Assembly (NCBI GenBank): GCA_002245135.1
Contig: NGBS01000015.1
Span: 1-64,000, forward strand
Reading direction: 5' to 3'
Source: Proteromonas lacertae
Taxonomy: Eukaryota
Length of the DNA stretch: 64,000 nucleotides
A program made the position numbers and the translations under genes. Positions 6,746-48,984 of the stretch are shown here, in pieces. Each line of letters begins with the position of its first letter. The first letter of the stretch is position 1. A model generated the notes under the pieces. It worked only from the letters and a program-made list of their open reading frames with translations. It had not been told where the DNA came from and ran no database searches.

Positions 6746-9700
6746 TTATATTTTAACTTCTTTTTCAATGTTTTTATCTTCATCTTCTTTACCAGTTATT
6801 GGAATTTTTCTTAATACAGACTGAGATCTACTTCTTCTTCTGAATATTCCAGTTCTTAATAAACAGAATACTACTATCACTATAATAATTAATCCACCTG
6901 CTACAGATCCAACAGCTATTCCAGCTATGGCTCCACTACTTGTTTCACATTCACTTTCATCAACTACACTCCATACACCTTTATTATCATCAGTTAATAA
7001 ACATTTTCTTCTCTTCATTCCACTTTTTGCTCCTCCACATTTTATCATTACTTCTTTTCCTCCTTTTTCAGCTGGGGTTCTTGGAAATCCAGAATCAGAT
7101 TCACAATATATTGCTTCAAATTCGATCTCTACTTCCACAGTCTCAATCTCTACAGATGGAGGATTTCTTATAGTGAAAGTATATTTTGTCTTTTCTACAT
7201 ATTCTGATGGTAATCCATATATTTCTCCAGATTTAGAATCTAATGATAAGCCTTTAGGTAATTTAGGATTTACTGAGATTTCAAGATTTGTTCCAACTGC
7301 AATAAACAAATATACTGATTTTAGTGCTTCACCAAATTTGAATTTTATATTAGATACTTTTGTTGATGGAATAATAACAGGATTATTAGGAATTGATGAA
7401 ATTAACATGAAAGTAAATGAAACTTGTTTTCCACTTCCACTGATTAAAATTGTGGTATTTACTGAATTAAAACTATTAGATATATATCCACTTATTCTTC
7501 CACTAGATGAATCAAATTTCAATGTCGACGATGGAAGATTAGGTATTATTGAATAAACTAAATTCTTTCCTGTTACTCTACCTAATTCTAATCCATCATA
7601 TTCTTTTCCACCTTCGATTATTATACTGTCATTATGTGTAATTATTACTGGTTCTACAGATTCTTCGACATTTATTGTGATTGGATTAGATATTTCGCCA
7701 TTTTCATTGTAACATTTGAATGTATATGATTTACTACTTGGTGGTTCAGTATTTACTTTTCCACTTATCATTCCACTATTTTCATCAAATTTTAATCCTT
7801 CAGGTAATGCTGGATCAATTGAATATAATATAGTCTTTGCAACACATTGATATGGTTGAATATCATCATAAATCATCCCAAATATCATTTTCACTTCTTT
7901 CTCATATTTTATATTATTAGGTTTCATTGGTAATGTTACATTCATTTCAATTGTTATATCAACATAATCTAAATTATTTGAAGCTGTGAATTTACTTCTC
8001 ATGGAACTTTCTTCAATCACCATTCCAGATATTAATCCACTCTTTTGGTCTAAACTCAATCCATTTGGCAATTCATCTACTTTATATTCAACATTTTCAC
8101 CTATCACATAAAATAATTTCAATTCTTTATATTCTTTACCAGCATCTAATATCACTGATTCATTACTCCAAATCATTATTGGATTCTTTGTGGGTAAAAC
8201 AGTTATGGATATTTCAATTGTTAAACCATCACCACCTGAATATGGATTAGTAGCTTTGAAATAAACTAGTTTTGATGATTCTTCAATATATGGTTGACCA
8301 GATATTAAACCAGTTGAATTATCTATTCTTAAGCCACTTATTTCAGTAACCATTGAATAGAATATATCTTTTCCTGAAACTGTGAATAATCTCACTTTCT
8401 CATAAAAATCACCTGCTTTGAATGTATAAGATGTTTCTTTACTAATTAAAGATGGACTTTCATCACAACTATTTTCTATTTCGCTCCAAGATTTATCATT
8501 ATTACAGTATAATGTTCGATTTCCTGATAATTCTGACCTTTTACAACCAATTGTTATTTCTGTCCCAGTTGCAGTTTCTGGTATATCTTCAACTGCTTTA
8601 CAATATCTTATTGGACATAAATGGAAGTTTATATCGTAAACATCAAGGTAAGCACCAATTTCTCCTACTTTTGTTATATTAAATCTAATTGCTGAATACA
8701 TAACAGTTGTAGTATAATTAGTAAAGACTTTCTTTAAATTTGTTGGATATGTTATATCAACAAAAGAGCCTATAGTATTCCATTGTGAATTATAATATCC
8801 TTCTACTGAAAAATCTTTTGGACCACCTCTTACAGAATAAGCATTAATACTAAACTGATTGAAATATGTATGATAATGATCTTTATATCTCATTATGGCC
8901 CAACTAGGAATAGTATCTGTAAACCATTCTGAATTAGGATTTTCATCAAAACCATAAGCAGCATGATAATAATTAGATACTGTATTTGTTTCAGTTACTC
9001 TTTTAGCATATTTATTCAGAATTAAACAATCTTCTTTACTTCCTGTTATTCTTAATAAAGATGAACTTATTTCAGGGAAATTGGTTTCTCCATTGAATTT
9101 GTGTAATTCCATTGAGATTTCAACTACATTCTCTTCTAACCATACAATTGGTAAAATAAATACTTCATCTGTTATAAAATCATATCGATTATTTGCCATT
9201 GTTGAAGGAGATATCTCACCATTTGGTAAATTATTTCGGAATATTTCTCTTCCATTCACTTTTATTATTATTCCACTTATATAACTCACTTTTAAAGCAA
9301 AGGCATTATATTTATCTATATCACTAAATCTGTCTATTTTTCTTATATAAATCACATTTCCAGATACTTTGTTTATTTCTGATAATTTCGATTTTGACCA
9401 TGTTGAATGTTCAGCATTTGGATTATCCCAACCATCTTCATATTGGATTGAATTTTCCCATTCTGTAATATAATCATAATCTGATGTGGAATGAAAACTC
9501 TTTTCTAGTTTTGCTACAGAAGAAGCTAATACTGTTCTATCAACAGGAATATCATCTACTAATACATCAATAAAACCATTTCCATAAGATGAAGAACTTG
9601 ATCTATAAACAGCTGTATATTCATCTTTTGATAAACAATAATCATATTTATAAATATAACCTTCATCCCATCCTTCATCTGATCCTTTCAGTTCAACTAT

Positions 9701-12700
9701 TGCAGTTTTATTTTCATTATCCATTTCAGATGTTTTATAAAGACTAAATCCCCATTCATCTGGACTTGTACTTATACTTCCATTCACATGAATACTTATC
9801 ATTGATTTGCTTTGCTTAAAACATAACTGATTCATTGTTTCACCATAAAATGTTAAATTGAAATATTTTGGTGTTCCTCCATTCATATTTGATCCTTTTA
9901 TCTTATATAGTTGTTTTGGTGATTCTTCTGTCACTTTACCTGTTATTGCACAATTTGTTGTATTAAAATGTAAAAATGAAGGTAATTCTGGAGATATTTC
10001 ACAATAATCTAACAATTTTATCTGTGGTATTATTTTCACTTCATCATTTAAATAAAACTCAACTTTTGTACTTTTAGGATAGTCTATAATTGGTTTTTTT
10101 GGAACAGTATTTATATTAAATGTTTTTGATTTATAACGTTGTAATTCTGCTCTATCAGCTAATTTTCCATCAGTATAAAAATCAAAGTAAAAACTTCCAT
10201 CTCCTTTTTGAAAGTCATTAGCATAAAATTTATAATCTCCAGGAATTAAACATATAACAGGAAAATATAAAGGAAGTGGTCCTGCTGGAATTGTATATTC
10301 AACTATTATTTTTCCATTTGTATTTTCAATATCAGTATCAATATATCCAGTTCTTGGATTTATTGTATCAACTACTTCTACAAAATGAGGTTTATATTCA
10401 CCTGAACATCCACTTATCGCATTTGTCACAATTTTGGTACTTACAAATTCAGTATTGGAATAATAAGCTCGAATTTCCAATGTATAATTTGTTAAATATT
10501 CAGTTGCAACAGCTGTTATTCTTCCTGTATATTTATCATATGTAAAGCCACCAGAAACAACTGGTAATTCATAATAAATCACAGAACCACTATCAACACT
10601 TATCAATAAATGACTTTCATTTCCAATAAACAAATTCAATTCAGTTATTGATGTTCCTTCATTATCTAAATCTTTTATATGTAATCCTTGAGGTTTAGTA
10701 TCTCCTATCACTTTTATAGATATTGTGGCATTTACTGTTGAGCCATCTTCTAATTTACCACTTATCACATAGGATGATATATCTTGAACTGTTGTTGGTC
10801 TTCCACGAATTGTACAACCAGATAATTCTAAACCAGGAGGTAAACTAGGTTCAGATATACATTCATTTATTTCTTTGTTTCCTTCGATAAATGGAATATT
10901 GTCAGATATTCGATTATTCACTATATAAACTGCATAACTAACTCGATATTCAAAATCACCTCTTGGAACAAAATATAAATTACCTGTCAAATATTTATAT
11001 TCATTATCTATCTCATTCTTATATAACAGTTTTATTCCACTTCCTCCTACATTCTTCATATAATTCACTCTTATGAAGTGATATCCTTCACTTAAGTATT
11101 TTGTTCCTGTTTTGCAACTCCAATCATGAATTCCTTTGTGATTTATTACTTCGACATAATCAATAAATAACCAAGATCCTTGAACTGAGGTTAAATTGAA
11201 TGTATAATTTCCAGATGATTCTATCTTTAAATATCCTTCCCAATTTACTCCAAATTCACTGGCAAAATTGGGAGTTAAACCATCCCAGATTGATTGGATT
11301 GGATTATATTCTTCATTTATCTCATCTTCTAATCGAAGTATTTCAGTTTTAACACCTTCACTTGAAGGAGTATAAGGAATTGAACAACTTGTATCAAAAT
11401 CATCAGATTTAAGATAATAAACAACTATTCCTTTTACATATTTATCAACTACATCAACAAATAAAAATACCATATTGGTTGTGGATGTTTCAGTTGAACA
11501 TTTTACTGTTAATCGAAGAAGACCAACACGATTAACTTGTCCTTTCAATATATTCTTTGTTATATCAGCTGTTATTTCATTATTTCCTGTTATACATTCA
11601 CTTGCTAATCCTCTTTCTATTTTGAATGGAATTTCAAAATATGAATTGATTGGCATTGTATAATATTGACTATCAAATGTCAAATAAGAAACAACATCAT
11701 ATTTAGCTAATGATTGATAATATTGAATGGATTGTTCTTCTGTTTCACCTGGTATTTTCCATTTTAACAAAAATTTATAAGAAGCGTAATCTTGCATTTT
11801 TACACAATTATAATCACAACATTCTTCTTGTCTATATGCATAATGACCAACTATCTTGATTGAATGATAACCAGATGTTAAATTCATTGAAGTTGTTTTA
11901 TCTGATTCTTCCCATATACTACATACAGTATTACATTGATGAGAACCTTGATTATAGCTACGACCATTCTCTTTTATTATAGTTAATGCTGTATCAATAT
12001 ATATTCTGTATGTTGTAAAATCTGAATTCTGATGGAATGTATAACTACCTGTTTTCGGAGCATATATAGCTCCTTCCATTGTATAATTCCAATGTTTTAC
12101 ATTATTAGCTGTTAAAAATCCATCCAATTTTTCATCCCAAACAGAATAAGGCATCATTTCCATCTAATCCATCTAAATTGTCTAATATTGTTGTTTTACT
12201 GTTAAAAATTGTTTTAATGTAGAAAGAATAACCACATGTGAAGGTATTTACATCATCCACTCTCACATTTAAACCTGATTTTATAACTTTATCAGTTCTT
12301 GAGATTATAATTGAAGTTGAAGTTGTGCTTTTACCAGCTGGATTTTCAGCATTTATTGTTACTCTATTATTGTTATATAACATTAAATATATACGTTATT
12401 GGATCTTCTGGAGGTGGTAATTCATCAATTTGTAGTATTCCATCAGTTGATATTGAAATTGGATATGAACCAGCTGGATTAAAACTAATTGACCAACTTT
12501 TCACTTTTTTATCACTTTTACAGGGGAAATAATCGGTTATAATGGCAGAAATGTATAATTCCATTAATCCACAAGTTAAACGTGGTTGGAATATCCCAAA
12601 CTACACAATAAATTCACAAAATATACTTTTCATTTCGATAGAAGCTGTCATCATCGAACCATCAGATGACTTTAAGGTAACGGTATAATTTGCTTGATAT

Positions 12701-16889: not shown

Positions 16890-18790
16890 CTATTTCTTCT
16901 CACTAAATTTAATATCCGGTGTTTTATGACGAGGATTAGGTGGTGATAATGAAGATGGATTTGTCATATATACTGATTTAGACTTAATAATAGAAGGAAC
17001 AATTAACTCTTTACTCATATTCCAAGTATCATCAACTGCTTGTTGTGTAACATTTGTAGTACTACAACATTCTGTAGCAGCTCTTTGTCGCCTTTTATTA
17101 ATACTTTTTGAATGCTTGTATTTACTACTTGAATAACGACTTAACAAATGTTTGCTGTTGTTGTAATTGTTGTTGTTGCTGTTGTTGTTGTTGTTCATAT
17201 TTTCTCTTTCTATAAAACATTGACATTGAATTCTTTCGTTTATTAAAAGCATTATTGTTATTCATTTCACTTGGACTAAGCGCATTTGAACGTACTATCA
17301 GTTGAACCAGTATAATCATAATAATGAGGTAAAATCAATTGGAAAAAGCAAGTAACAATCATAGAGAATGATATATTGGATATATAAAGTGGATAATGAC
17401 TATCAATTCTTATAACACTAAATCCAACACCAAATACAAGTGTAATTAATAACATACACAATGGTCCTTTCACAGTAAGAGTGTAAGTGTGTAAGAAACA
17501 AAGAACTAATACCTAATTTTATGTAATTCAAACCTGCAATTATTAACAAAATACCAACAATCGGGAGAGGAGTGTATTGAAAGAATGACATTATTGCTGG
17601 AAATAATGAAATAATTATTTGAAATATGGAATATATAATGATTGGTGCATATGTAATTGAAGTAGAATGAGTTAGATGAGTTATAAATGGTGAAATTGTC
17701 AGTGGTGTAATACCAAAAAATGAACTGATTATTGTGTAAATTCCTTGAATTATTAAATACTTTATATATTTTTCTTTTGATATTGTTTTTGTACCTTTTA
17801 CTTTACTTGGAAGAAAATTTGAAATATTATCAATTTCAGAGAGTAATGATAAAGGCATAATCACAAAAAATGGTTTGACTTTCCATTTGAATAAACAGGA
17901 AATTACTTTTATCGAATCTTTATTATATCCAATTACCTTAAGATTTTTAGACCAATCCGTGTTAATTACTGTATTTGAATATTTATGATCAAATATGTAA
18001 AATAATAAACATATTATATATCCAATAACATACAACCAAATTGGAATATATCTAACAATAACTTGCAATGTAAAACCACTTGAAAATGCTAATAATAAAA
18101 ACAAGATTAGTAATATAGAAATATGTTTAGATTGTACTGTCGCTCTAAATGGATTATATCCGTTTATCATTAGTGCATATAAGCTGATTGTACAACCTAC
18201 AGAAAAACATAAACCTGATAATATTTCGGATTGAAAAAATTGATTGTAATTGAATTTGACATACTTTATAAACAATGCTAATATAAATAGTAATACTCCA
18301 GAAACTAATACTCCTAACTTTATCTCGGCCATTGCCTCATAAAAACCATCATCCACAATATTTTTAGGATAGTCTGAAAATTGATTATGTTTTACATTAT
18401 TAAATATTGTTTTGTAAAGTGTCGAATTAAAATCACTCTCTGATATGTGGTCAAATATGTATTTCGACTGTTCTTCAAGTAACAATTCTCTCATGGCAAA
18501 ACTATATACTATATTAGGTGCATAACTAATAGCAAAAGGAAAATGTAAAGCTTTTATTGACACAATGTTATATATTCCCGAAAACAAGAATGTAAACGAA
18601 CTATTTTGCGGCAATAGAAAATGTGATGTTGAATAAGCTACTAATATCATCAAAAATAATTTTATTGAGTCAATGTATGCTAGTTTATTATATCTATAAT
18701 TATACTCTGAAGTTGACCAAAATACTTCATTTTTATTAGTACTGGATCTGTTGGTACAACAATGATATTACTTCTACGTGTTTCACTCAT
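16890..18790 (-). CDS. Polytopic membrane transporter (SLC26/NCS2-like, tentative) with Asn-rich tail
   Basis: Many hydrophobic segments, QGIYTIISSFFGITP and TPLPIVGILLIIAGL; ORF split by introns or frameshifts. Confidence 0.55.
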
Positions 18791-19002
18791 TCTAGTGAGA
18801 TAAATAGAAAAACGATAGAAATGTTCAAAACGAATAGTTTTCAGTAACTGTACAAAATGTATTTTTTTCTTTATTTTTAATCAACCAAATACAATATATA
18901 TATTATAAATAAATAAATAAATAAAACTTTACTTCACTTAACTCTTGACAAATCTATAACATTAATAATAATATAATAACAAATCAAATAAAGATTAGTA
19001 TT

Positions 19003-19092
19003 TATAATCAGAGTTTAGGTAATAATCAAGTATATTTTCAAAAGGGTAGAGAAAATATTCATTCTAGAGGTACTAAAAACTCATCAATTTAT
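19003..19092 (-). ncRNA. Box C/D snoRNA; D' guide snR48-like (LSU CUAGAGGU), D guide possibly snR62/U34-like
   Basis: C TGATGA, D' ATGA, C' TGATTA, D CTGA; guides GTACCTCTAG and TTACCTAAAC. Confidence 0.75.
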
Positions 19093-19107
19093 AAAATAAT
19101 ATTATAG

Positions 19108-19178
19108 TAAATCAGACTTAAAAAGCTCGATGAAAACGATCATGGTTTTATCACGTTCAATTAAGAGTCATCACAGTT
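19108..19178 (-). ncRNA. Box C/D snoRNA, snR47/U36 homologue
   Basis: C GTGATGA, D CTGA; D guide antisense to SSU UUAAAAAGCUCG (+5 = yeast Am619 site); D' guide antisense to LSU-like UUCAAUUAAG (Am2220 site), the same target pair as snR47. Confidence 0.9.
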
Positions 19179-19201
19179 ATATATATATATATATATATCA
19201 T

Positions 19202-19273
19202 GAGCTTAGACAGCCAAGGGGTTGTCTTCACTAGTAATTCAGAGACTCTAGTCTAGTGTTGTCATCATTGCTC
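19202..19273 (-). ncRNA. Box C/D snoRNA, double guide for U52/snR78 and U53 sites
   Basis: Terminal stem GAGC/GCTC, C ATGATGA, D' CTGA, C' TGAAGA, D CTAA; guides antisense to LSU GACUCUAGU and ACAGCCAAGGG. Confidence 0.9.
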
Positions 19274-19320
19274 TTAATGATATATATACATATTAATATG
19301 AGGATAATAGATATATATAT

Positions 19321-19396
19321 AATAATCAGTGCAAAAGTTCACATCATTATTAATTTATCAGATGTCCCTATTTTTGCTTAAAAATCCTCATATATT
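19321..19396 (-). ncRNA. Box C/D snoRNA, snR64/U74-like
   Basis: C ATGAGGA, D' CTGA, C' ATGATGT, D CTGA; D' guide antisense to LSU UGUCCCUAU (+5 = yeast Cm2337 site). Confidence 0.82.
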
Positions 19397-19542
19397 ATAA
19401 AAGAATAGATAGTGTATAAAGTAATAATAATAATATATACCTTTCTAACTTCTCATTATTTCAATGTAATTCATTTAACATATCTACTATAATATAATTA
19501 AATAAATAATAATAGATTTAATAGAGTTTAATAATAATAATA

Positions 19543-19622
19543 TTGATCAGTGCAAGGATGATCGTTTTCCTCTTTCATTAATATTCAGAGAGATTCCTAT
19601 TGATTTTGTTCATCATAATCAA
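19543..19622 (-). ncRNA. Box C/D snoRNA, U79-like LSU guide plus U6 snRNA guide
   Basis: C ATGATGA, D' CTGA, D CTGA; D' guide antisense to LSU GAGAUUCC; D guide TCATCCTTGC antisense to U6 GCAAGGAUGA. Confidence 0.88.
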
Positions 19623-19651
19623 ATATTATTAATACACAATATATATATATA

Positions 19652-19740
19652 TAATTATTTATCAGAAGGAAGGCAGCGTTTCGTGTAAGATTTCATTATA
19701 TATATCAAGACGAAACATTTATAACATCATCAAATAATTA
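19652..19740 (-). ncRNA. Box C/D snoRNA, snR52/U83-like SSU guide
   Basis: Terminal stem TAATTATT/AATAATTA, C TGATGA, D CTGA; 12-nt guide antisense to SSU AAGGAAGGCAGC (+5 = yeast Am420 site). Confidence 0.9.
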
Positions 19741-19754
19741 TATATAAAAGTAGT

Positions 19755-19832
19755 ATCTATCTCAGAGATCTTGGTGATATTTTTGTCGTCATATATTATC
19801 AAGAGTAGCAAATATAGAAATCATCGATAGAT
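19755..19832 (-). ncRNA. Box C/D snoRNA U24/snR24 homologue
   Basis: Stem ATCTATC/GATAGAT, C CGATGA, D' TTGA, C' TGACGA, D CTGA; guides antisense to LSU AGAUCUUGGUG (Cm1437 site) and AGUAGCAAAUAU (Am1449 site). Confidence 0.92.
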
Positions 19833-19992
19833 ATTATATATGATTAACAGAATTAAGAAAATTGGAGTTTATATTTATACCTTTCTATTCTCTCCTGTTA
19901 GTTTATCATACCGTTAATTATCATAACCTATAACAAAATATAAATATAAATTCATAATTAAGAAAATGAAGATTTATAAATAATAACTATAT

Positions 19993-20069
19993 AATGAATT
20001 CCTCATAGAATACAAAACGCTTTTCATATAATTTCAAAGGTGTCCAAAGTTAAGATCATTGGTTTCATT
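19993..20069 (-). ncRNA. Box C/D snoRNA snR67/U31 homologue
   Basis: Degenerate C ATGATCT, D' TTGA, D ATGA; guides antisense to LSU AGGUGUCC (Gm2619 site) and GAAUACAAA (Um2724 site), the same pair as yeast snR67. Confidence 0.85.
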
Positions 20070-20099
20070 AATAGCAATATATAGATAATAATATTAAAC

Positions 20100-20199
20100 G
20101 TGGTCATTATCACCAAGACTGGCAAGACTTAGTGATATAAAGGTGTGTATGAAATCAGCGTCGATCATACGGGGTAAGAAGACAAATATATCATTCCAC
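20100..20199 (-). ncRNA. Box C/D snoRNA snR190/SNORD12-like, copy B
   Basis: Stem GTGG/CCAC; D' guide GTCTTCTTACCCCG antisense to LSU CGGGG(A/U)AAGAAGAC; hairpin displaying loop TCTTGCCAGT; D ATGA. Confidence 0.85.
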
Positions 20200-20245
20200 A
20201 TTTAATATTATATATAAATAAGTAATATAAATAAGTGTATATAGT

Positions 20246-20348
20246 TCATGGTCCATCGGTAGTATCACTGGCAAGAGATACTACCCTTACAAAGATTGAA
20301 ATCAGCTTCAATCATACGGGGTAAGAAGACAATATCGTCATACCATGA
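20246..20348 (-). ncRNA. Box C/D snoRNA snR190/SNORD12-like, copy A
   Basis: Stem TCATGG/CCATGA, C ATGACGA, same D' guide; perfect 9-bp hairpin GGTAGTATC/GATACTACC with the same 10-nt loop. Confidence 0.85.
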
Positions 20349-20761
20349 TAGTAAGTAATATAGTATATAATATACATGAATCAATGATGAATATTGGTCA
20401 AATCATGAATAATCTTCAAAATGCAAAAATGAAGATGAAGTTTGTGATTGGATCAAATCATGTTCTGCATTTTTATTTGATAGAATATTTTCATTGTTCT
20501 ATTCTTCTTTTCATCTCTTCATCTAAAGAATAATGATTTTGTATTTTATTTATATTTTTGATATAACATTTCTGTTTACTTGTTGTTTTAATCACTTTAG
20601 TTATTCTATTTCTATTTTTTTCTAAAATTCAAATTCAGTTCAGCAAGAATAACAATAGAAAGTGTATTAATTACATATTCTAGATGTAAATACAAGCACA
20701 ATCAAAAAAATAAAATATGTTCGGCTTGACAGTTTTTTAAATAAATCCGTCTTTTCTTCTG

Positions 20762-22631
20762 ATGAAGCGAATCTGTCTTTGTTTTGTTGTGCTTATCACT
20801 GCAAATATACTATGTCGTATCTATTTTTGTTGTCTATTTGATAGTTTTTTACATAATTACATATTTTTGGTTGCAAGTATCGAATTCACAAATAAATGGA
20901 AATAATACAAATGAAATAATTGATAGAAAACCAATACTACTATCTGATGATTCAAATAATGTAAATCATGGTGATAATAACAAAAAGTCATTATATAATA
21001 TAAATGAAATAGTTCCAACCCAAAATTCAAAACACTTAAGAAATGAAGATATAGAAAAATCAGAACCACCAACAACAAAACCTCCAAATTCTCAAACAGA
21101 ACCACCTAACCCAACAACCCTATTACCAACAGTTTATAACAATCAAAAATCTCAAAATGATATAAAATTTTCAAGAACAAATACATCCGCATTGCCAATA
21201 TACATAATTAAGCTCTATGAGAATAAATCACCTCATCAAGATTATCCTGCTGTTGGTACATACAATATAGACACGCAATACAAAAGAGCCATAGTATTTA
21301 TCGCATTCAGAAGATGTGCAATATTTGAAAAAGTATTTCAATCATACAAATCTTTACCACTTTTTCCCTATTTTGATGTAATTATATCCGTTGAAACTAA
21401 CCGTAATAAAACCATCAGTTGTATGAAAAACCTAATCAATCGATATCAGAATGAAAATGGTAATATAATAACATTAATATTTCAACACAATTATACCTAT
21501 TATTCTAAACGAAAATTACGAACTGGACCTCCACGAATCACTCATCATTATTACTATTTATTACATACATTATTTAATTGTTATAATTATGATTATTTAT
21601 ATATTGCTGAAGATGATATTAAAGCCACAGATGATACTTTAGACTATATAATGCAAGCAGAATACCTATTAAGAGAAGATCAATCATTATTCTGTATAAA
21701 CACATTCAATCGTCAAGCTAAACAAGGATTGGTACAGAATTCAAAAAGATTATTTCGTACAGATATGAATGTGGGATGGGGATGGGTGCTCGGAAAAGAT
21801 AAGGGAAAAGATTTAATAAAAAAATGGCCGTTACATAATAAGTTATATATATGGGATAATTGGGTGTTAATGTATATGGATATAATGAACTATGAGTGTA
21901 TATCACCAGAGATACCAAGATCTATTCATATTGGTAAAAAAGGAACTACAATGAATAGGAAAACTTATGAAAAAGAGGCTGTAAGAGTGTATAGTGAAGA
22001 AAAGAGTGGATTTAATTTTGGTGATTTATCTTATCTATTACAAGATAATTATGAAGAATATATGAAGTCTTTATTTGTGAATGGAAAGATTATTAATTAT
22101 AATGACTTAGATTTGAATAGATTTGGTAATGATAAAACTTATATTTTACCATACTATTTATCAGATTATCCTACAATTAATAAAGTAATTCAAACTAGCC
22201 ATATCCCTAGAGATAAACATAAAGGTACTTATGTATTTTATGGTAAAGATTGGAAGTTAATTATAGCTGAAAGAAGCTTATCTCCTTATCTACCTGATAA
22301 TCAGAAATTGAAGTTGAAAAATAATACTGAACTTATTGTAGGTGCTAAAGGAGATGATTGTGATAAGACGTGTGGTAATTATCGTAAAGGGAAAACAAGA
22401 TATAAATGTGATGTGTTGTCGCTGATTGTAATTAGTCGACCACACATCGCTGGTAAATATTTAGATTGTCCCTGTTATTTTTATGATGCTTCTTTCACTT
22501 CCCCGTCATTATTAGGAAGTAATTCGGGTACTGGCGGTGATGGTTGTTGCTTGATCGGTAATGATGCTAATTTCAAATGTGATGGTAAGCACAAGTCTTC
22601 AACAAGATTATGCCCTTGTTTGCCGATTTAA
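20762..22631 (+). CDS. GT13 (GnT-I/POMGnT1-like) glycosyltransferase with Cys-rich C-terminus
   Basis: Type II TM, P/T-rich stem, RITHHY, IAEDDI, GWGW, WDNW, ECISPEIPRSIHIG; start inferred at ATG 20762 with a mini-intron. Confidence 0.85.
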
Positions 22632-28652: not shown

Positions 28653-30643
28653 TTATATTCTAATATAATAATACTCTCTTGTTTTTAATGATGCATATAC
28701 TATATTAATTTCTTTTTTTTCTTTTCTTTTTGTAGAAAAATCCAAATCACTCATCATTCTTTCTATTTTTGATGCTGGATAATCTTCTAATATTTCAGGA
28801 TGTTTACTGAAATAGGTTATTCTCTTTCTCACATCATGACTACATTTTCTATACAATAATTTTCCACTCAATTCTCCTGGATAATCTACATCCCAATCGT
28901 ATAAAAATAATCTTAAATTATTTCGACTTAATAATGAACATAATATAAATATTTCTTCTTCTAATTCATCTTTGAATTCTTTACTCTATATTATAATATT
29001 ACAATACAATATTATTGATATACATTCTCTAATTCTTTTCTTTCATATTCTCTTACAGCTTTTTTAATAAATTCCCATGGATATAAATAATTTTCTTCTA
29101 AATGAATAATATCTTCACTATCACATATATAAATATCTTCTAAGAACAATTTGATTTGATCAGTAGTCATATATGCTTCATTACATCTATCCCACTTTGA
29201 TAAACAGCCATTATCTCTGTAATATTTGTACATATGTCTAAAATTTATAAAAGAATGTTTAATATACTCAAAAGCTTCTTTAACTGATTTTACTCTTGCA
29301 TTAACATATTTTTCTTCATCACTCATTTCTCTTGCTGTATTTAATATAAACTTTGTTAATCCTCCAACTGCAAATGCTACTCCTCCAGCTACTATACACA
29401 ATGATGCTGCTGGTAATGCTATTGCACTGGCTGCTAAAGCATATGGTGTAGCAGCCATTGCTCCAAGTGATGCAGCTGATGAAGCAACATTAATAGCTAA
29501 TCCAACATCATCCTAAATCATTATATCATATTAAATATACTTTTGTTTCTTCATATTCTTTAACAGCAAATGCTAAATCTACAACAGCTGAAGCACCTAA
29601 TGCTAATGAAGGTGTAAGAGCTTTTAATCCTTTTGCTGTATATCCTGCATATCTAGCGCCTTCTCTAAATGCAAGCGTTGTTCCAACTGTTAACGATGAG
29701 GTAACACCTCCTGCTACTGTATTATATGCCACATTTCTTGCTCTTTCAATATAATCAGTATTCAAATGATATTTTCTGATTATATCATTTATCATTTCTT
29801 GTTTATCTCTATATTCTTTATAACACATAAATATATACTTTTTATAATCATAACTATTATAACAGAACTTTATTTGTAATTCTTCATATATACCTTTAAA
29901 TAGTTTTATTCTGTCATCTATTGTTTCACATCTATTGAATATCACTTCATAATCATTACATCTGATTGGTAATTCTATTAATAATCGATTCAAGAATCTA
30001 TTATTATTATTATATGGCATATATATACCCTTCACTCATTCTTTTTATTACTTCGACTATTCTATCAGATTCACTTTTGTTTTTGAATTCTTGGTATAAT
30101 CCTTCAGCTGCACCAAATAATGAACCAAATACAGCAGCACTTAGCAAATAAAGCTTTTACATTAGTTTGATTTGCTTTAGCTCTTTTTCTATATGCAGCA
30201 TTTCTCTTATTTCTGGAAGGATGAAGACTTTGACCCTTTTGGACGTTGAATAGAAGGAGGATGAGGTGAATGATTCTTTACTTTTGGTACTTTCAAGTTC
30301 TTAACAGCCATGCTATTATTATATCTCCACCTTCCACCATTTGAAGTGATATTAGGTTGATTATAATCGGAATCTTTATCAAATACTGAATCTGTTCTTT
30401 GGAATCTGTGAATCTTATAGCTATGCATATATTCAAGTTGTTCCACTTCCTTATCTCCTTTGAAGCTTCAAGGTTTTTTATCATTTGTATAGCTTTTTCT
30501 TTCTTCATTCCATATATTTCTGGATAATCTACAGGAATCTCTTCAATTTGTCTGTTATATTCATCTATAACTATTTGTATCTGTTCTTCATCTGACCAGC
30601 ATGATTCTATATCGCTATCTTGGTTAACTGAAGAAAGATCCAT
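28653..30643 (-). CDS. Orphan family member 1 (basic Pro/Arg motif plus Gly/Ala-rich hydrophobic helices); frameshifted
   Basis: Paralogous to 31130-32977 and 42708-44606 (PEIYGM, FLEDIYICDS, KCSHDVRKR). Confidence 0.7.
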
Positions 30644-31129: not shown

Positions 31130-32977
31130 TTATGTATATATATCCCTTTTCTTTAACGAATTTAAAATTTGATTTATTTCACATCTTTCATTTCTTTTTG
31201 TAGAAAAATCCAAATCACTCATCATTCTTTCTATTTTTGATGCTGGATAATCTTCTAATATTTCAGGATGTTTACTGAAATAGGTTATTCTCTTTCTCAC
31301 ATCATGACTACATTTTCTATACAATAATTTTCCACTCAATTCTCCTGGATAATCTACATCCCAATCGTATAAAAATAATCTTAAATTATTTCGACTTAAT
31401 AATGAACATAATATAAATATTTCTTCTTCTAATTCATCTTTGAATTCTTTACTCTATATTATAATATTACAATACAATATTATTGATATACATTCTCTAA
31501 TTCTTTTCTTTCATATCTTCTAACTGCATTTTCAATATATCCCCATGGTATAGAGATACTTTTCTTCTAAATGAATAATATCTTCACTATCACATATATA
31601 AATATCTTCTAAGAACAATTTGATTTGATCAGTAGTCATATATGCTTCATTACATCTATCCCACTTTGATAAACAGTCATTATCTCTGTAATATTTGTAC
31701 ATATATCTAAAATTTATAAAAGAATGTTTAATATACTCAAAAGCTTCTTTAACTGATTTTACTCTTGCATTAACATATTTTTCTTCATCACTCATTTCTC
31801 TTGCTTTGTTTAATACATATCTTGTACCACATCCAAACAGAATCGAAGCAAATAATGATATACACCATATTGGAACATAAACAGGTGTAATAGCCATAGA
31901 AGCTAAAACAACTGGTGTGGCTATATAAGCCAGTTGCAGATGCTGCAGCTGAAGCAACATTAATAACTAATCCAAAATCATCCTAAATCATCATATTATA
32001 TTAAATATACTTTTGTTTCTTTATATTCATAAACTGAACTAGCCAAATCTACAACAGCTGAAGCACCTAATGCTAATGAAGGTGTAAGATCTTTTAGTTC
32101 TTTTGATGTATATCCTGCATATCTAGCGCCTTCTCTAAATGCAAGCGTTGTTCCTACTTTTAAAGCTGAATCAGCTCCTTTTACTAATGTGTTATATGCA
32201 ACATTTCCTGCTCTTTCAATATAATCTGTTTTTAATTTATACTTTTCTATTATATCATATAACATTTCTTCTTGATCTCTATATTCTTTATAATATATAA
32301 ATATATACTTCTTGTATATGTAATTATGGTAGCAATTCTTGCTTAGCAATTCTTCATATTTTCTTTTAAAATATATAATTCTTTCATCTATTGTGTCAAA
32401 TTTACTAAATGCTTTTCTATAATCATTACAATCTATAGGTAATTCTATTAATAATCGATTCAAGAATCTATTATTATTATTATATGGCATATATATACCC
32501 TTCACTCATTCTTTTTATTACTTCGACTATTCTATCAGATTCACTTTTTTTCTTGAATTCTTGGTATAATCCTTCAGCTGCACCAAATAATGAACCAAAT
32601 ACAGAAGCATTAGTAAATACTGATCCTATATTTGTTTGATTGGCTTTAGCTCTTTTTCTATGTAAATTATTTCTTCTATTTCGACCTGGATGCAAACTTT
32701 GACCTTTTGGACGTTGAATAGAAGGAGGATGAGGTGAATGATTCTTTACTTTTGGTAATTTCACATTTTTTATATCTCCTTGTTTTCTTCTATTCTTACA
32801 TTTACTATCCTGTTCCTCTGATGCTGTATTTTCTATTTCAACTTCTAGATCTTTTACCATTTGTAAAGCCTCATCTTTACTCATTCCATATATTTCTGGA
32901 TAATCTACAGGTATTTCTTCAATTTGTCTATCATATTCATCTATAGTAAGTTGTTCTTCTTCTTCAGTATCGTTCAT
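31130..32977 (-). CDS. Orphan family member 2 (tandem duplicate)
   Basis: Large blocks near-identical to member 1; HPGRNRRNNLHRKRAK motif. Confidence 0.7.
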
Positions 32978-35004: not shown

Positions 35005-38000
35005 CTATACATATCTTACATCCAACATATCAAGAAGACTATCAGACATGTATTTTGTTTCACGGTTGTATTTCTCAGATATATAAGTCAATCTATCCAC
35101 ATTGAGATGTGATACAATATAATCCTTTTCGTCTATAGAATAATATTTCATTGAAAAATAATATACATTCATTCTTAATCAGCTTGTATAATGCACAACA
35201 TGCATAATATAATTCTTCAAAATAATCATGTTCCAATAAACTGCTAATAATGTCAATTCCTTCTCTATTTATATAGCTCAAGTCATTATAATTACTATCA
35301 ATGTAGTTACAAATTGCATGGGTTGAATTTGCTCTTTTATACTTATCATCAGTCTGACATTGTTGAAGTAAAAACCTTACGCCAGCCTCAGTATCAATAT
35401 TATTATCTAATTAACATAATATTTAGTTAGAATATGATATATATACTATTTGTTGTAAATGCAAATCCATATGAGTATATTTTCAATCTATCATTTGTAG
35501 ATGTTACATATGAATGTATTAACCTAGTGACTGAAGTATTTTTTATGCATATTGTTAAATCTGGATGGCATGCTAAATTCCATAATAATCCCACAGCACT
35601 AATTAGAATAGTATCATCACTTTGAATATTTACGCAATTATCAATATATGGAATACCACCACAATTTGATATAATCTTTTTATTTTCATCTAATAATATA
35701 TGATAATAAATTCTATACCAAAATGTTCGCTAACGTTCCAAAGGGCAGTACACATTGAATCTTTAACATTTGGATTATTTGTGTTTCTAAGAACATTCAC
35801 GAATGTCAATATACCATTATTATTAACTATTTCTGGAATAAACCTTTCAATTAAAGTAATATCAACAATTAAATTCTTTATAACATTTTGTATATTATTA
35901 TTATTAATATTTAAATAAGATAGAATAACTGGAATAATACCGTAAGAACATGCATAAGTTAAACAATGTTCTATTTGTTACAAATGCAATATATACGATT
36001 ACTAGATATATTATTTAGTAGAAGAATTGCTGGTATTACATCTAAAGCATTATTTGAAGCAAGATTTTTAATTAAAAAGAATATACCTCCCTAACCAACA
36101 AAAAAGATTCCTTTGAATGTCATCAGTCATACATTCAACTAATTGTGTTATTCCTATTATTGATTCAAGAGGATTAGGAGATATTAACAATTTCATATAT
36201 TGTGACCATTCTGGTAGAAAACCTTCTATATTTATATAAATTACAATTTATATAATTTACTTTCATCTATTCTTATTGAAAGAAAGTGTTCAATATTCTT
36301 CTCCACAAAGTAAATATATCCATCAGATGTTATATTATTTCCAGTAACACATATTCTATCAAATGATGGAATTATAGTAAGAGGTTCAATTATCTTTTTG
36401 AAGCCAACATCAGAGATTGAATTTTCTATAACTAAAATCAAAATAAAATACCTGTGAGATCTAATCTGACTAGACAATAAAGTAGTGGCAGTCTATTACT
36501 AAACAAATCCATACTTTCATCAGTAATTTCATTATCTATATAGTTTATACATATATAGTTTCATATTTTATATTTATACTGGATAGTAATAGATATTGAA
36601 GATTATGCATTCCATGGAAATGATTACTCAACTCTATTAAACTATCATCATTTAGGTTACATTTGTTCAATATTAGTTGATTTATTGAATAGAGTGGAGG
36701 AAAGGATTTAGTTAGAGTTTTTATATCAGTTAAATCGAATGAATTTTCACTCAAATCTAATCCTCTCAATAAACCGTTATGACATAATACACTTCCCAAT
36801 TCTTTTATTTCTTCACTTTTTATTCCATTTTCTATTCAATCACAAATTACATTAACATTAACATATATATATATATATATATATATATACTGGATAAATC
36901 AAGATTTCGTAAAGAAGAGAGTTGATTAAATATATCATGTAAACCTTGTAGTTTTGATAATGTTAAATTAACATCTATATCATTACAATAAACAGAATAT
37001 TATACTTATTAATGATAGACTTTTCAATTTATAAAAATATCCAATTATTTCACTCATATATTTTGATGAAATATCTAATGATCTGATTTTAATAATTTCA
37101 CAAGATGAAAAATATGAACACATTATTAATAGTTGGTAATATGCTCTTTCTTCTGAAGTATCAATGACTATTTATATATTATTATTGTTGTTTAAATCAA
37201 ATACAAGAATCGAAGGATAAATGATCACCACTAAATAATCTATACATTTCAAAAGGAAGATAATTGACTGATCCAGCCATTCTCCATATTTTATAATCAG
37301 GAAATGTTTGATGCATTTTTTGAGCCCATTCACCTGTATATATATATCATATTTTATACGATTTTTACTCAGATTTAAGAAGATTTTTAAACCATATATT
37401 GAGATGGATTTATCTTGACTGTCACTTGTTAATGTTTGGATTTTTCGTAATATATCATTAAAGTCACTTATATTCTTAAAATTATTATCATCACTTTCTA
37501 AATCACTAATATCTTTCATAAATTGCATTACTTCATTTTCATTGTTTAATAATGGCAAATCGATTAATTCACTTTCTTTATGATTTATACTATAGTTCAC
37601 TATTTATAATAATAAATAATTGTTATATACGATGGTTATATTGATATTTTATAAACAGTTCGTGTTTAAATATTTCCTTATAGTGTTTGATTCGACCATC
37701 AATTACATCGTTTATTAACTTTATTAGTTTTTCACTTATACCATAATATTCATTGGTTTCTATATTATAACCACTATATCTTCGAATTATTTCTCCACTT
37801 TTCTTTATATCTTTCTCTAATGATACTCTTTCATCGTTTTTGAATAGATATAATGGATCAGATAGCATAAATCGACCATCATTGTATAATATATTCGTTT
37901 CTTTTATATTTCCATGAATTTGATTACATGTATCTAATGCTTCTATTCCTTTCAATATACTCAACCATACATGAATTAATTCCTAATAACATTCATTATA

Positions 38001-38385
38001 TCATATTTACATATACAGATTCAGAAGGAATAAAATGAGTTTCTGCATTCTTGTTTATTATATCATATATACTACATTCACATGCTTCTTCTTTTAAATA
38101 GTATTTATTTCCCATTTTTATACAATCATATATGTTCAAAAGATTCTCATGTCGAATTATGTCACTAATCTGTTTATATACAAATTAATATTTAATATAT
38201 ACTTGTAGATCACTATTTATGTTTTTTTCAATCACTCCTTTCAAAGCATATATTCTTCCTGTTTCAACTTCTAAAGAAATTCTTACTGAACCATGTACAC
38301 CTCCCCATTTATCAGTAATAGTTTTAAAAATATTTCTATATGCTAATGCTGGACTTTCTTTGATGCTTCTTGTGAGATTACTCAT
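35005..38385 (-). CDS. Pseudokinase-LRR-armadillo repeat protein, copy 1
   Basis: WGGVHGSV, IYALK, IHGNIKETNILY, LSDP; LDLSEN LRRs; ARM-like CTALWNVS and VGLLWNLA. Confidence 0.7.
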
Positions 38386-41162
38386 TTATTTCATACAAAA
38401 AATATATCCGTTATGAGATCTAAATATACAGTACTTGAAACAGTTAAATAGAATATTATTCATGTTCGACATGAAGAAATGAATTGAACAATGATATGGA
38501 GTTTGTAGATGCTATGTAAATGAATAGAAATTAAGAAATATTGTAAAGTATTTTGAAATATATACTTGGCTTGATTTCATTCATTTCTTTTTTTGTTTTA
38601 TTTCTCTCCAATGAAGCTTGTTAGGTATATAAATTATTTATTATTAAATAACACATAGATTTTTAATGCGTTTATGCAATGAGACAGTTACAATTGAACT
38701 AAAGAATGGCTCAATCGTAAAAGGAACAATAGTAGGTATATATATGGATATAATTTATGTTTTTTTTTTTGTTATGTTATATTAATCTTATATAATTGTC
38801 TTACAATAATATTTTATGTTTATACTCTATAGGCGTTGATATTGCTATGAATATACATTTAAAAACCGTAAAAATGACAGTGAAAAATAGAAATCCAGTA
38901 ACACTTGATAGTCTTTCAATTAGAGGAAATAATATAAGATATGTAATATTACCAGATAGTTTAAATCTCGATAGTCGTCTAGTAGATGATGCACCAAAAA
39001 CTCGTAGTGGAGAAGCTGCTGGTAGACCAAAAAGAAAAGCAGGTAAAGGAAGGGGAAAGAAGTTTTAGTAATTTTGTTTTTTAAAACTATATCTAAAATA
39101 TTATATTCTGTTTGTAGTTTGAAGCTGTGGAAATATTAATTTATTTATAATTCATACATTTACATGGCATCTACAAACTCCATATCATTGTTCAATTCAT
39201 TTCTTCATGTCGAACATGAATAATATTCTATTTAACTGTTTCAAGTACTGTATATTTAGATCTCATAACGGATATATTTTTTGTATGAAATAAATGAGTA
39301 ATCTCACAAGAAGCATCAAAGAAAGTCCAGCATTAGCATATAGAAATATTTTTAAAACTATTACTGATAAATGGGGAGGTGTACATGGTTCAGTAAGAAT
39401 TTCTTTAGAAGTTGAAACAGGAAGAATATATGCTTTGAAAGGAGTGATTGAAAAAAACATAAATAGTGATCTACAAGTATATATTAAATATTAATTTGTA
39501 TATAAACAGATTAGTGACATAATTCGACATGAGAATCTTTTGAACATATATGATTGTATAAAAATGGGAAATAAATACTATTTAAAAGAAGAAGCATGTG
39601 AATGTAGTATATATGATATAATAAACAAGAATGCAGAAACTCATTTTATTCCTTCTGAATCTGTATATGTAAATATGATATAATGAATGTTATTAGGAAT
39701 TAATTCATGTATGGTTGAGTATATTGAAAGGAATAGAAGCATTAGATACATGTAATCAAATTCATGGAAATATAAAAGAAACGAATATATTATACAATGA
39801 TGGTCGATTTATGCTATCTGATCCATTATATCTATTCAAAAACGATGAAAGAGTATCATTAGAGAAAGATATAAAGAAAAGTGGAGAAATAATTCGAAGA
39901 TATAGTGGTTATAATATAGAAACCAATGAATATTATGGTATAAGTGAAAAACTAATAAAGTTAATAAACGATGTAATTGATGGTCGAATCAAACACTATA
40001 AGGAAATATTTAAACACGAACTGTTTATAAAATATCAATATAACCATCGTATATAACAATTATTTATTATTATTATAAATAGTGAACTATAGTATAAATC
40101 ATAAAGAAAGTGAATTAATCGGATTTGCCATTATTAAACAATGAAAATGAAGTAATGCAATTTATGAAAGATATTAGTGATTTAGAAAGTGATGATAATA
40201 ATTTTAAGAATATAAGTGACTTTAATGATATATTACGAAAAATCCAAACATTAACAAGTGACAGTCAAGATAAATCCATCTCAATATATGGTTTAAAAAT
40301 CTTCTTAAATCTGAGTAAAAATCGTATAAAATATGATATATATATATATATATATACAGGTGAATGGGCTCAAAAAATGCATCAAACATTTCCTGATTAT
40401 AAAATATGGAGAATATCTAATTCTTTTAACTTCATTCCATTTGAAATGTATAGATCTTCTAATCAAAATAAACTCATATTTGGTAAAGGTATGATTATTT
40501 TATTGTTTATGTAATATAGCTACAAATACTGAGAATGAAATAGCATACTTTGAATTGAATATAATGTGTTCCTACTTTGCATATTGTGATAATTTTAGTA
40601 TTGAATCATTAGATATTTCATCAAAATATATGAGTGAAATAATTGGATATTTTTATAAATTGAAAAGTCTATCATTAATAAGTATAATATTCTGTTTATT
40701 GTAATGATATAGATGTTAATTTAACATTATCAAAACTACAAGGTTTACATGATATATTTAATCAACTCTCTTCTTTACGAAATCTTGATTTATCCAGTAT
40801 ATATATATATATATATGTTAATGTTAATGTTAATGTAATTTGTGATTGAATAGAAAATGGAATAAAAAGTGAAGAAATAAAAGAATTGGGAAGTGTATTA
40901 TGTCATAACGGTTTATTGAGAGGATTAGATTTGAGTGAAAATTCATTCGATTTAACTGATATAAAAACTCTAACTAAATCCTTTCCTCCACTCTATTCAA
41001 TAAATCAACTAATATTGAACAAATGTAACCTAAATGATGATAGTTTAATAGAGTTGAGTAATCATTTCCATGGAATGCATAATCTTCAATATCTATTACT
41101 ATCCAGTATAAATATAAAATATGAAACTATATATGTATAAACTATATAGATAATGAAATTAC
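36523..41162. repeat. Inverted duplication; arms about 36523-38522 and 39157-41162
   Basis: Identical ORFs on opposite strands (38185/39294, 37623/39715, 36545/40886). Confidence 0.95.
38611..39068 (+). CDS. SNRPD1: Small nuclear ribonucleoprotein Sm D1
   Basis: [44 protein letters not shown]; two introns. Confidence 0.95.
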
Positions 41163-48889: not shown

Positions 48890-48984
48890 TAATATTATTA
48901 TTTAATACTATTTTTTATTAATAAATCATTTATTCTGTTATAATAACACACAAATTTTCAAAGTTAAAGTAAATTCTTTAAAAT

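What the first reader, a model, noticed from the sequence alone, without database searches (positions are those of the whole stretch)
18900..20620. Hidden non-coding host gene with ten box C/D snoRNAs in polycistronic introns (3+3+4)
Seen: ten minus-strand units with box C, box D, mostly terminal stems, and 8-14 nt antisense elements whose +5 position falls on known 2'-O-methylation sites. Several reproduce the yeast double-target pairs (snR47, U24, snR67). Two roughly 46-nt exon-like blocks, both ending AGAAAG|GTATA, split the array into introns of about 448 nt (20375-19928), 394 nt (19880-19487) and 487 nt (19440-18954), roughly ten times the local intron size. Inference: a GAS5/UHG-like host with several snoRNAs per intron, which needs both splicing and endonucleolytic separation. 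I know of no description of this in this lineage.
Basis: partly seen in the sequence, partly recalled or inferred. Interest (0 to 1): 0.88.

Follow-up and report, generated by a model that had tools for sequence, protein, structure and literature searches.

The report
Ten snoRNAs packed in three introns
In a protist whose introns are usually about 30 bases long, ten small guide RNAs for ribosomal RNA sit in groups of three, three and four inside what are likely three long introns of a non-coding gene; this is a known way of making such RNAs, found here in a lineage where I found no description of it.

Summary
Ten box C/D units lie on the minus strand: U24 passes Rfam's threshold, and units resemble Z157/R10, SNORD79, U83/snR52, SNORD36, SNORD58 and snR107/SNORD12. 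Thirteen guides point at conserved sites of proxy rRNAs; nine of them beat a random-site control. The intron model is well supported by sequence but unproven. A splice model trained on this window's coding genes ranks the three acceptors 1st-3rd of 68 AGs and the donors 1st, 3rd and 4th of 62 GTs. The seven spacers between snoRNAs hold no AG, so one snoRNA per intron is excluded. Corrections: local introns are about 30 nt, so these are 13-16 times longer. Only the U24 pair is reproduced in full; snR47 is half matched and snR67 is absent. Polycistronic introns (rice, Drosophila, Arabidopsis, Ostreococcus) and non-coding hosts (vertebrates, fungi) are both known. No spliced reads, native rRNA or homologous locus could be examined.

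The parts
20376..20620 (-). Likely exon 1 of the host (start unknown; may be much shorter); A-rich, no ORF over 13 codons
   Evidence: 48% A, 13 AG; donor at 20375 scores 7.8, rank 4 of 62 GTs
19928..20375 (-). Predicted intron 1, 448 nt, holding units 1-3
   Evidence: CAT|GTATATT ... GTTATAG; acceptor score 9.9, joint best of 68 AGs
20246..20348 (-). Unit 1: snR190/snR107/SNORD12-type C/D snoRNA. D' guide points at the LSU G2395 equivalent. A 10-nt loop UCUUGCCAGU sits on a 9-bp stem. C box AUGACGA and D box UGGA would pair with each other.
   Evidence: fold z -3.87; weak hits to Z103, snR107, SNORD12
20096..20203 (-). Unit 2: paralogue of unit 1 with the same D' guide and the same 10-nt loop on a different stem; 16-bp terminal stem
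   Evidence: snR107 26 bits, E 0.045; z -4.34
19992..20070 (-). Unit 3: SNORD58-like. D' guide points at the LSU G2651 equivalent, D guide at the U2735 equivalent.
   Evidence: (SNORD58 E 0.008); neither guide beats the random-site control alone
19881..19927 (-). Predicted exon 2, 47 nt, 23% G
   Evidence: 1 of 2000 dinucleotide shuffles as good
19487..19880 (-). Predicted intron 2, 394 nt, holding units 4-6
   Evidence: donor 9.5 (rank 1 of 62), acceptor 8.9 (rank 3 of 68), second AG 3 nt further at 19484
19754..19833 (-). Unit 4: U24/SNORD24 with both guides (LSU C1437 and A1449 equivalents)
   Evidence: Rfam 51.1 bits, above gathering
19652..19741 (-). Unit 5: snR52/U83 type. D guide points at the SSU A420 equivalent; D' guide unassigned.
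   Evidence: 12 of 12 pairs with L024 SSU; weaker in the two other SSUs
19540..19626 (-). Unit 6: SNORD79 type. D' guide points at the LSU A2326 equivalent; D guide unassigned.
19441..19486 (-). Predicted exon 3, 46 nt, 20% G
   Evidence: 20 of 2000 dinucleotide shuffles as good
18954..19440 (-). Predicted intron 3, 487 nt, holding units 7-10
   Evidence: donor 8.9 (rank 3 of 62), acceptor 9.9
19319..19401 (-). Unit 7: D' guide points at the LSU C2337 equivalent (snR64/U74 site); D guide weakly SNORD81-like
   Evidence: (8-9 bp, not above control)
19202..19275 (-). Unit 8: Z157/R10 and Tetrahymena TtnuCD15 type, with both guides (LSU U2421 and C2365 equivalents); D box reads CTAA
19107..19180 (-). 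Unit 9: SNORD36/snR47 type. D guide points at the SSU A619 equivalent; the LSU guide of snR47 is missing.
19002..19096 (-). Unit 10: first internal guide points at the LSU G2791 equivalent (an SSU 3'-end site scores as well); D guide unassigned
18925..18953 (-). Likely exon 4: 29-nt G-rich block followed by a T-rich tract; 3' end unknown
   Evidence: 24% G
17418..18790 (-). Downstream neighbour: 448-aa membrane protein with a weak MFS_MOT1 match and one 26-nt intron; rival host
   Evidence: (E 1.6e-6, below cut-off)
20762..22631 (+). Upstream, divergently transcribed neighbour: GNT-I family glycosyltransferase with a 28-nt intron

Best explanation
Ten box C/D snoRNA genes lie in three groups (3+3+4) between splice-site-like signals, and they are likely transcribed as one non-coding host RNA whose three long introns are spliced out and then cut between the snoRNAs. 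Shown: the units, their guides, the splice-like signals, the absence of any AG between snoRNAs of a group, and the absence of an ORF in the joined exons. Inferred: (1) Pol II transcribes from a promoter region shared with the divergent GNT-I gene. (2) Because these introns are 13-16 times the usual length, the two tiny purine-rich exons with AAG|GTATA donors would help the spliceosome find them. (3) Core proteins bind the K-turns. (4) After debranching, exonucleases can trim only the two ends of each intron, so seven internal cuts need an endonuclease. The likeliest is an RNase III-type enzyme acting at the AU-rich stems (up to 17 bp) that close most units. (5) The mature 65-100-nt RNAs guide 2'-O-methylation of rRNA; units 1 and 2 may also chaperone early large-subunit folding like snR190. 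The short spliced RNA would be a by-product, as in GAS5/UHG.
For: Rfam hits. Nine guides beat 95% of 150 random NTGA-anchored sites on proxy rRNAs and land on homologous positions, which match the sites tabulated for Neurospora. A gene finder told only GT..AG recovered introns with median 33 nt (170 predicted); six of them rebuild an intact 520-aa eEFSec (E 7e-185) and one an intact GAPDH. A matrix from 128 such introns ranks the acceptors 1-3 of 68 and the donors 1, 3 and 4 of 62. Exon-like acceptor+donor scores of the two long spacers were reached by 1 and 20 of 2000 shuffles. G is 27 of 122 nt in the three blocks against 14 of 445 nt in snoRNA-free intron parts; AG 15 against 1. AAG precedes only 2 of 128 ordinary donors but both internal donors here. 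Last D box to acceptor is 75, 60 and 54 nt, near the roughly 70 nt reported optimal in vertebrates. Joined exons give no ATG-ORF over 13 codons.
Against: No spliced read or homologous locus was seen. The matrix is largely AT-composition: the plus strand of the same region also gives sites scoring 8-9, and the reverse strand of spacer 6-7 scores 16.2 against 17.8. The block boundaries used in the G and AG counts were chosen after seeing them. The looser pattern TATAG-N30-60-AGGTAT is not enriched window-wide (4 found, 19 of 100 shuffles reach 4). The first donor is the weakest, and the host's start and end are unknown. Strong-looking internal donors exist at 19289 (rank 2) and 19635. Guides were tested on foreign rRNAs; those of units 3, 5 and 7 do not beat the control. 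The endonuclease is not identified.
Confidence: 0.7

Rival explanations
1. An unspliced polycistronic snoRNA operon, as in budding yeast or plants. The G-rich blocks are spacers or decayed units, and an endonuclease releases all ten RNAs.
For: AT-rich spacers yield high splice scores by chance (plus-strand controls). Stems around most units would allow cutting without splicing. S. cerevisiae clusters come from unspliced transcripts.
Against: Two blocks of equal length each carry acceptor, purine-rich body and the same AGAAAG|GTATA, and a third acceptor closes the array. The spacers at these places (157 and 138 nt) are far longer than the other seven (11-42 nt).
Confidence: 0.12
2. The three introns are real but lie in the 5' leader of the downstream transporter mRNA, so the host is protein-coding.
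For: Same strand; its ATG (18790) is only 163 nt after the last acceptor. Most known polycistronic introns are in protein-coding genes.
Against: The leader would hold 5 upstream ATGs in exons 2-4 and up to 13 with exon 1. A T-rich tract and AATAAA follow exon 4. An ATTCGTT motif about 45 nt before the transporter ATG recurs before the GAPDH and GT92 starts, hinting at its own promoter (not tested against chance).
Confidence: 0.08
3. The introns are removed stepwise from internal donors (19637/19635 to 19487, then 19880 to the second AG at 19484; 19289 to 18954, then 19440 to about 18944), so splicing does part of the separating.
For: Two spacers hold strong-looking donors in 173 nt, against 4 in 2563 nt inside ordinary introns. 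Exon 3 begins with TAG (a second AG follows in 5 of 128 ordinary cases), and the regenerated acceptor scores 8.2 or 6.3.
Against: Small numbers in AT-rich sequence. The intron 3 regenerated acceptors score only 4.6-5.9. There is no such donor in intron 1, and lariats with 2-3 snoRNAs remain, so an endonuclease is still needed.
Confidence: 0.07

Closest known systems
Intronic snoRNA gene clusters of rice, Drosophila, Arabidopsis and Ostreococcus tauri (PMC2780460 background section; PMC2875012 and PMC7671301 passages); Chlamydomonas (title in a reference list only)
   Same: Several snoRNAs in one intron, needing splicing plus cleavage between them.
   Different: The examples I read are single introns of protein-coding genes. 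Here three successive introns are all polycistronic, the host appears non-coding, and ordinary introns are about 30 nt. I recall, but could not read, reports of non-coding hosts with clustered introns in Drosophila.
GAS5/UHG-type non-coding hosts and fungal snoRNA clusters I-III (PMC2780460 passages; PMC3596301 abstract and section 5)
   Same: Short non-coding exons, no ORF, introns that carry C/D snoRNAs.
   Different: These mostly follow one snoRNA per intron, sometimes with no exon between. Here the seven internal spacers have no AG at all.
snR190 (S. cerevisiae) / snR107 (S. pombe) / SNORD12 (human) / plant Z103 (PMC8536666, PMC11971394, PMC3116282 passages; Rfam RF04328, RF00581, RF00149)
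   Same: D' guide to G2395, a D'-C' spacer of the UCGAC type (intact in unit 2), and a second element UUGCCAG between C' and D.
   Different: Two tandem paralogues with degenerate C/D boxes, the second element held in a hairpin loop, no U14 neighbour. Rfam scores (15-26 bits) are below gathering.
U24/SNORD24 (RF00069) and Z157/R10 with Tetrahymena TtnuCD15 (RF00333, RF02291)
   Same: Both guides of each double-guide RNA are kept.
   Different: Unit 8 has a D box CTAA, which is either a real degeneracy or a sequencing slip.

Membership tests
Box C/D methylation-guide snoRNAs | Boxes C and D able to form a K-turn | tested here: met
   Both sheared G.A pairs in 9 of 10 units; unit 8 has CTAA
Box C/D methylation-guide snoRNAs | Terminal stem | tested here: met
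   Above shuffled flanks in 8 of 10 units
Box C/D methylation-guide snoRNAs | Antisense element next to D or D' with +5 on a conserved rRNA site | tested here: met
   At least one guide per unit on proxy rRNAs; above control in units 1, 2, 4, 6, 8, 9, 10 and not in 3, 5, 7
Box C/D methylation-guide snoRNAs | Pairing to native rRNA, expression and methylation | not testable with these tools
   No genome held; no run listed
GAS5/UHG-type non-coding host gene | Spliced exons without ORF | tested here: met
   Longest ATG-ORF 13 codons in the predicted joined exons
GAS5/UHG-type non-coding host gene | Introns actually spliced; independent transcript | tested here: inconclusive
   Signals rank at the top but no RNA data; transporter ATG lies 163 nt downstream
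GAS5/UHG-type non-coding host gene | One snoRNA per intron | tested here: not met
   0 AG in 173 nt of the seven internal spacers
Intronic polycistronic snoRNA cluster | Two or more snoRNAs between one donor and one acceptor | tested here: met
   3, 3 and 4 units, given the predicted sites
Intronic polycistronic snoRNA cluster | Endonucleolytic separation | not testable with these tools
   Only stems are seen; no genome to search for RNase III
snR190/snR107/SNORD12 (units 1, 2) | D' guide to the G2395 equivalent | tested here: met
   13 Watson-Crick pairs, 1 wobble and 1 mismatch in 6 of 6 proxy LSUs; register agrees with C2392/G2395 in PMC8536666
snR190/snR107/SNORD12 (units 1, 2) | Second antisense element pairing with LSU domain I | tested here: inconclusive
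   Motif matches the Rfam snR107 and SNORD12 consensus. It pairs over 10 nt with domain I in 1 of 4 proxies where that region was found, and over 5-6 nt just upstream of the target in 4 of 6.
snR190/snR107/SNORD12 (units 1, 2) | Rfam gathering score | tested here: not met
   26 bits against 44 (unit 2); 15-16 bits (unit 1)
Yeast snR47 double guide (unit 9) | Both the 18S A619 guide and the 25S A2220 guide | tested here: not met
   18S guide present; the AAUUUCUU D' guide of the SNORD36 and snR47 consensus is absent
Yeast snR67 double guide | Guides for 25S G2619 and U2724 (G2619 recalled; U2724 from the Neurospora table plus offset) | tested here: not met
   Longest antisense matches anywhere in the array are 4 and 7 nt; no Rfam snR67 hit listed

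The most novel reading that the evidence does not exclude
A protist whose spliceosome handles almost only 30-nt introns makes ten rRNA guides from a dedicated non-coding gene in which every intron is a 400-500-nt polycistron, defined by tiny purine-rich exons with strengthened donors and possibly taken apart by stepwise splicing from internal donors. Two of the RNAs are a duplicated snR190-type chaperone that holds its second rRNA-binding element in a hairpin loop, which would extend the yeast 60S chaperone design to the SAR side of the eukaryote tree.
Probability: 0.25. Interest if true: 0.6.

Novelty: new member of a known kind. Interest (0 to 1): 0.36.

Why it matters
If spliced as predicted, the locus is a natural test of how a spliceosome tuned to 30-nt introns recognises introns 15 times longer, and of which nuclease separates snoRNAs in a protist lineage with no snoRNA annotation that my searches found. 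It supplies ten predicted guides, including an snR190/SNORD12-type pair whose 10-nt loop is kept on unrelated stems, a ready target for asking whether the yeast chaperone role is ancient. It is not a new kind of system: each ingredient is described elsewhere, and other windows of this scan noted similar clusters in other protists.

Tried and rejected
No RNA holder was listed for 17500-22500, so no reads could be laid. No whole genome is held. The one metagenome scan, for a U24 guide followed 65-95 nt later by a snR52 guide, gave 16 loci of 45-65% GC with none of the cluster's motif order (6 of 16 read in full, bacterial-looking coding DNA); Rfam found no snoRNA in the 12 of 16 scanned. I treat them as chance hits; this says nothing about relatives. 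Viral-contig scans gave 1 rRNA fragment, 120 matches to a 14-base motif that I took as chance and did not examine, and 0 double-guide U24 matches. A raw GTA..AG distance histogram showed no clear peak, so a gene finder was used. My hand-set intron coordinates were off by one in three cases and were corrected. An unanchored guide search was too noisy. Taxonomy was not resolved: GAPDH best hits are 72-78% to alveolates and stramenopiles, and the tree does not group it with the one Blastocystis sequence. The closest homologues of two other genes are unnamed, and the protein atlas gave no answer. Rejected: an eleventh snoRNA at 20376-20480 (fold z -0.17, only weak plus-strand Rfam hits); a peptide from the joined exons; fungal-type zero-length exons between snoRNAs (no AG); snR47 and snR67 double-target pairs. 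The Chlamydomonas, Drosophila and rice cluster papers were not held, so the claim about what they show rests on citing papers and recall.

Full report
Setting. The window is about 26% GC and eukaryotic, with long open frames under the standard code. GAPDH best matches alveolate and stramenopile proteins at 72-78%, but a tree does not place it. A gene finder given only a coding model and GT..AG predicted 170 introns, median 33 nt, 91 of them 26-34 nt. Of the 128 distinct ones up to 45 nt, 87 start GTAT and 66 end ATAG. Six of them (26-41 nt) rebuild an intact 520-aa eEFSec (E 7e-185 against a profile of fetched homologues), and a 28-nt one rebuilds GAPDH. Such introns recall Blastocystis (mode 30 nt; PMC5608401 section 8 and passages; PMC12129017 passages). 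Unchecked notes on other pieces of this genome call it a flagellated protist. My guess, by inference only, is a stramenopile near the Blastocystis/Proteromonas lineage.

The snoRNAs are real. Window-wide, Rfam at gathering level finds only a tRNA and U24 at 19758-19829. At E<=10 the 2.3-kb region gives 27 matches, most of them minus-strand C/D snoRNA families on the ten units. Boxes are often degenerate, but 9 of 10 units keep both sheared G.A pairs; unit 1 pairs C-box AUGACGA with D-box UGGA, and unit 8 reads CTAA. Terminal stems beat shuffled flanks in 8 of 10, and in 6 of 10 a unit's left flank pairs best with its own right flank. Native rRNA was not available, so I used eukaryotic rDNA found as contaminants in prokaryote assemblies. 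Of 24 candidate box positions tested, 10 beat 95% of 150 random sites; one of these (an internal GTGA in unit 2) hits different places in different rRNAs and I discount it. The other nine point at the LSU G2395 (units 1, 2), A1449 and C1437 (unit 4), A2326 (6), U2421 and C2365 (8), G2791 (10) and SSU A619 (9) equivalents. Four more land on homologous sites without beating the control: SSU A420 (unit 5), C2337 (7), G2651 and U2735 (3). Yeast-style numbers are offsets from L024 anchored on G2395 (PMC8536666 passages) and checked against the Neurospora table (PMC2780460 section 3 part 1); numbers not in those sources are recalled. The U24 pair and the plant/ciliate Z157 pair are complete. Unit 9 lacks the LSU guide of snR47/SNORD36, and nothing addresses the snR67 sites.

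Units 1 and 2. They share a 22-nt block with the D' guide and a 10-nt UCUUGCCAGU. Both fold far better than shuffles (z -3.87 and -4.34), with that decamer capping a 9-10-bp stem whose sequence differs between the copies. Rfam gives weak matches to snR107, SNORD12 and Z103. PMC11971394 (passages) treats snR107, snR190 and SNORD12 as orthologues with two antisense elements. PMC8536666 shows that snR190 is a chaperone whose second element matches domain I. PMC3116282 (passages) lists the same region as extra pairing beside the target. Either use fits here. A search for snoRNA, protist and snR190 listed 2 papers, on Neurospora and Giardia (listing only).

The intron model. Position matrices from the 128 coding-gene introns rank the proposed acceptors 19928, 18954 and 19487 first to third of 68 AGs in 18780-20700 (19484, three bases on, is fourth), and the donors 19880, 19440 and 20375 first, third and fourth of 62 GTs. 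The best acceptor+donor pair in the two long spacers was matched by 1 and 20 of 2000 dinucleotide shuffles. The three exon-like blocks have 27 G and 15 AG in 122 nt; the snoRNA-free intron parts have 14 G and 1 AG in 445 nt. The seven spacers inside groups are 11-42 nt and hold no AG, so the groups cannot be split into single-snoRNA introns as in fungi (PMC3596301 section 5). Both internal donors are AAG|GTATA, whereas AAG precedes 2 of 128 ordinary donors; by established splicing rules an exon-side AG adds U1 pairing, which suits long introns. Against: the matrices reward AT-richness, the opposite strand also scores well, a looser exon pattern is not enriched, boundaries were chosen after inspection, and donor-like sites at 19289 and 19635 sit inside introns. 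The joined exons have no ORF over 13 codons. The same-strand transporter gene starts at 18790, 163 nt after the last acceptor; upstream ATGs and a motif shared with other gene starts favour a separate transcript but do not prove it.

Mechanism. Most likely (0.7): one Pol II transcript, three splicing events, debranching, endonucleolytic cuts between snoRNPs and exonucleolytic trimming. The need for cuts follows from the known pathway (PMC10557570 passages; PMC12508059 abstract and introduction). The enzyme is unknown; the extended AU stems (units 2, 5, 6, 8) are shorter than the 20 bp quoted for Pac1. Rivals: unspliced operon 0.12, transporter leader 0.08, stepwise splicing 0.07.

Comparison and novelty. 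Intronic clusters were first found in rice, then Drosophila, and occur in Arabidopsis and Ostreococcus (2 of 12 clusters). Non-coding hosts occur in vertebrates and fungi. I did not see the exact combination, a non-coding host with every intron polycistronic, in the passages read, but the three primary cluster papers could not be read and I recall Drosophila cases. Searches for Blastocystis+snoRNA (8 papers), snoRNA+stramenopile+intron+cluster (26, 25 listed) and snoRNA+intronic+clusters+Ectocarpus (6) listed no paper on such a cluster in this lineage (titles and abstract starts only; supplements and subscription papers not seen). Unchecked notes from this scan report similar clusters in other protists. 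Verdict: real, well supported by sequence, a new member of a known kind; interest 0.36.

Noticed in passing
window 20267-20276 and 20119-20128 (-): The same 10-nt loop UCUUGCCAGU sits on two unrelated 9-10-bp stems in the snR190-like paralogues, which suggests selection for displaying it.
   Followed up: yes
window 20007-20018 (-): The unit 3 D guide points at the LSU U2735 equivalent, a position I recall as pseudouridine in yeast; 9-bp match on fungal-type proxies, not above control.
   Followed up: partly
window 19637/19635 and 19289 (-): Donor-like GT sites inside introns 2 and 3, plus a TAG at the start of exon 3, would allow alternative or stepwise splicing.
   Followed up: partly
window 19206-19209 (-): The unit 8 D box is CTAA; one sheared G.A pair is lost. 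Real degeneracy or sequencing slip.
   Followed up: no
window 20455 and 20400 (-); 22735 (+): CCAAT-box-like motifs upstream of intron 1 resemble one upstream of GAPDH; if promoter elements, exon 1 is very short.
   Followed up: partly
window 18835 (-), 16072 (-), 22753 and 22783 (+): ATTCGTT recurs 45-85 nt before several start codons; a possible core-promoter motif (16 ATTCGYT matches in the window, not tested against chance).
   Followed up: partly
window 47131-48890 (+): Intact selenocysteine elongation factor eEFSec (520 aa, six introns), so the organism likely uses selenocysteine.
   Followed up: yes
window 6746-12163 (-): 1805-aa open frame of a membrane-anchored protein with PA14 and Ig-like (He_PIG) domains; only two close homologues found, both unnamed.
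   Followed up: partly
window 28986-30035, 31454-32505 and 43000-44600 (-); 36400-38200 (-) and 39500-41200 (+): Near-identical duplicated genes: a tandem pair with a third related copy, and an inverted duplicate with matching introns.
   Followed up: no
L002, L012, L016, L022, L024, L031: Prokaryote assemblies carry complete or partial eukaryotic rDNA, some with group I introns: contamination.
   Followed up: partly
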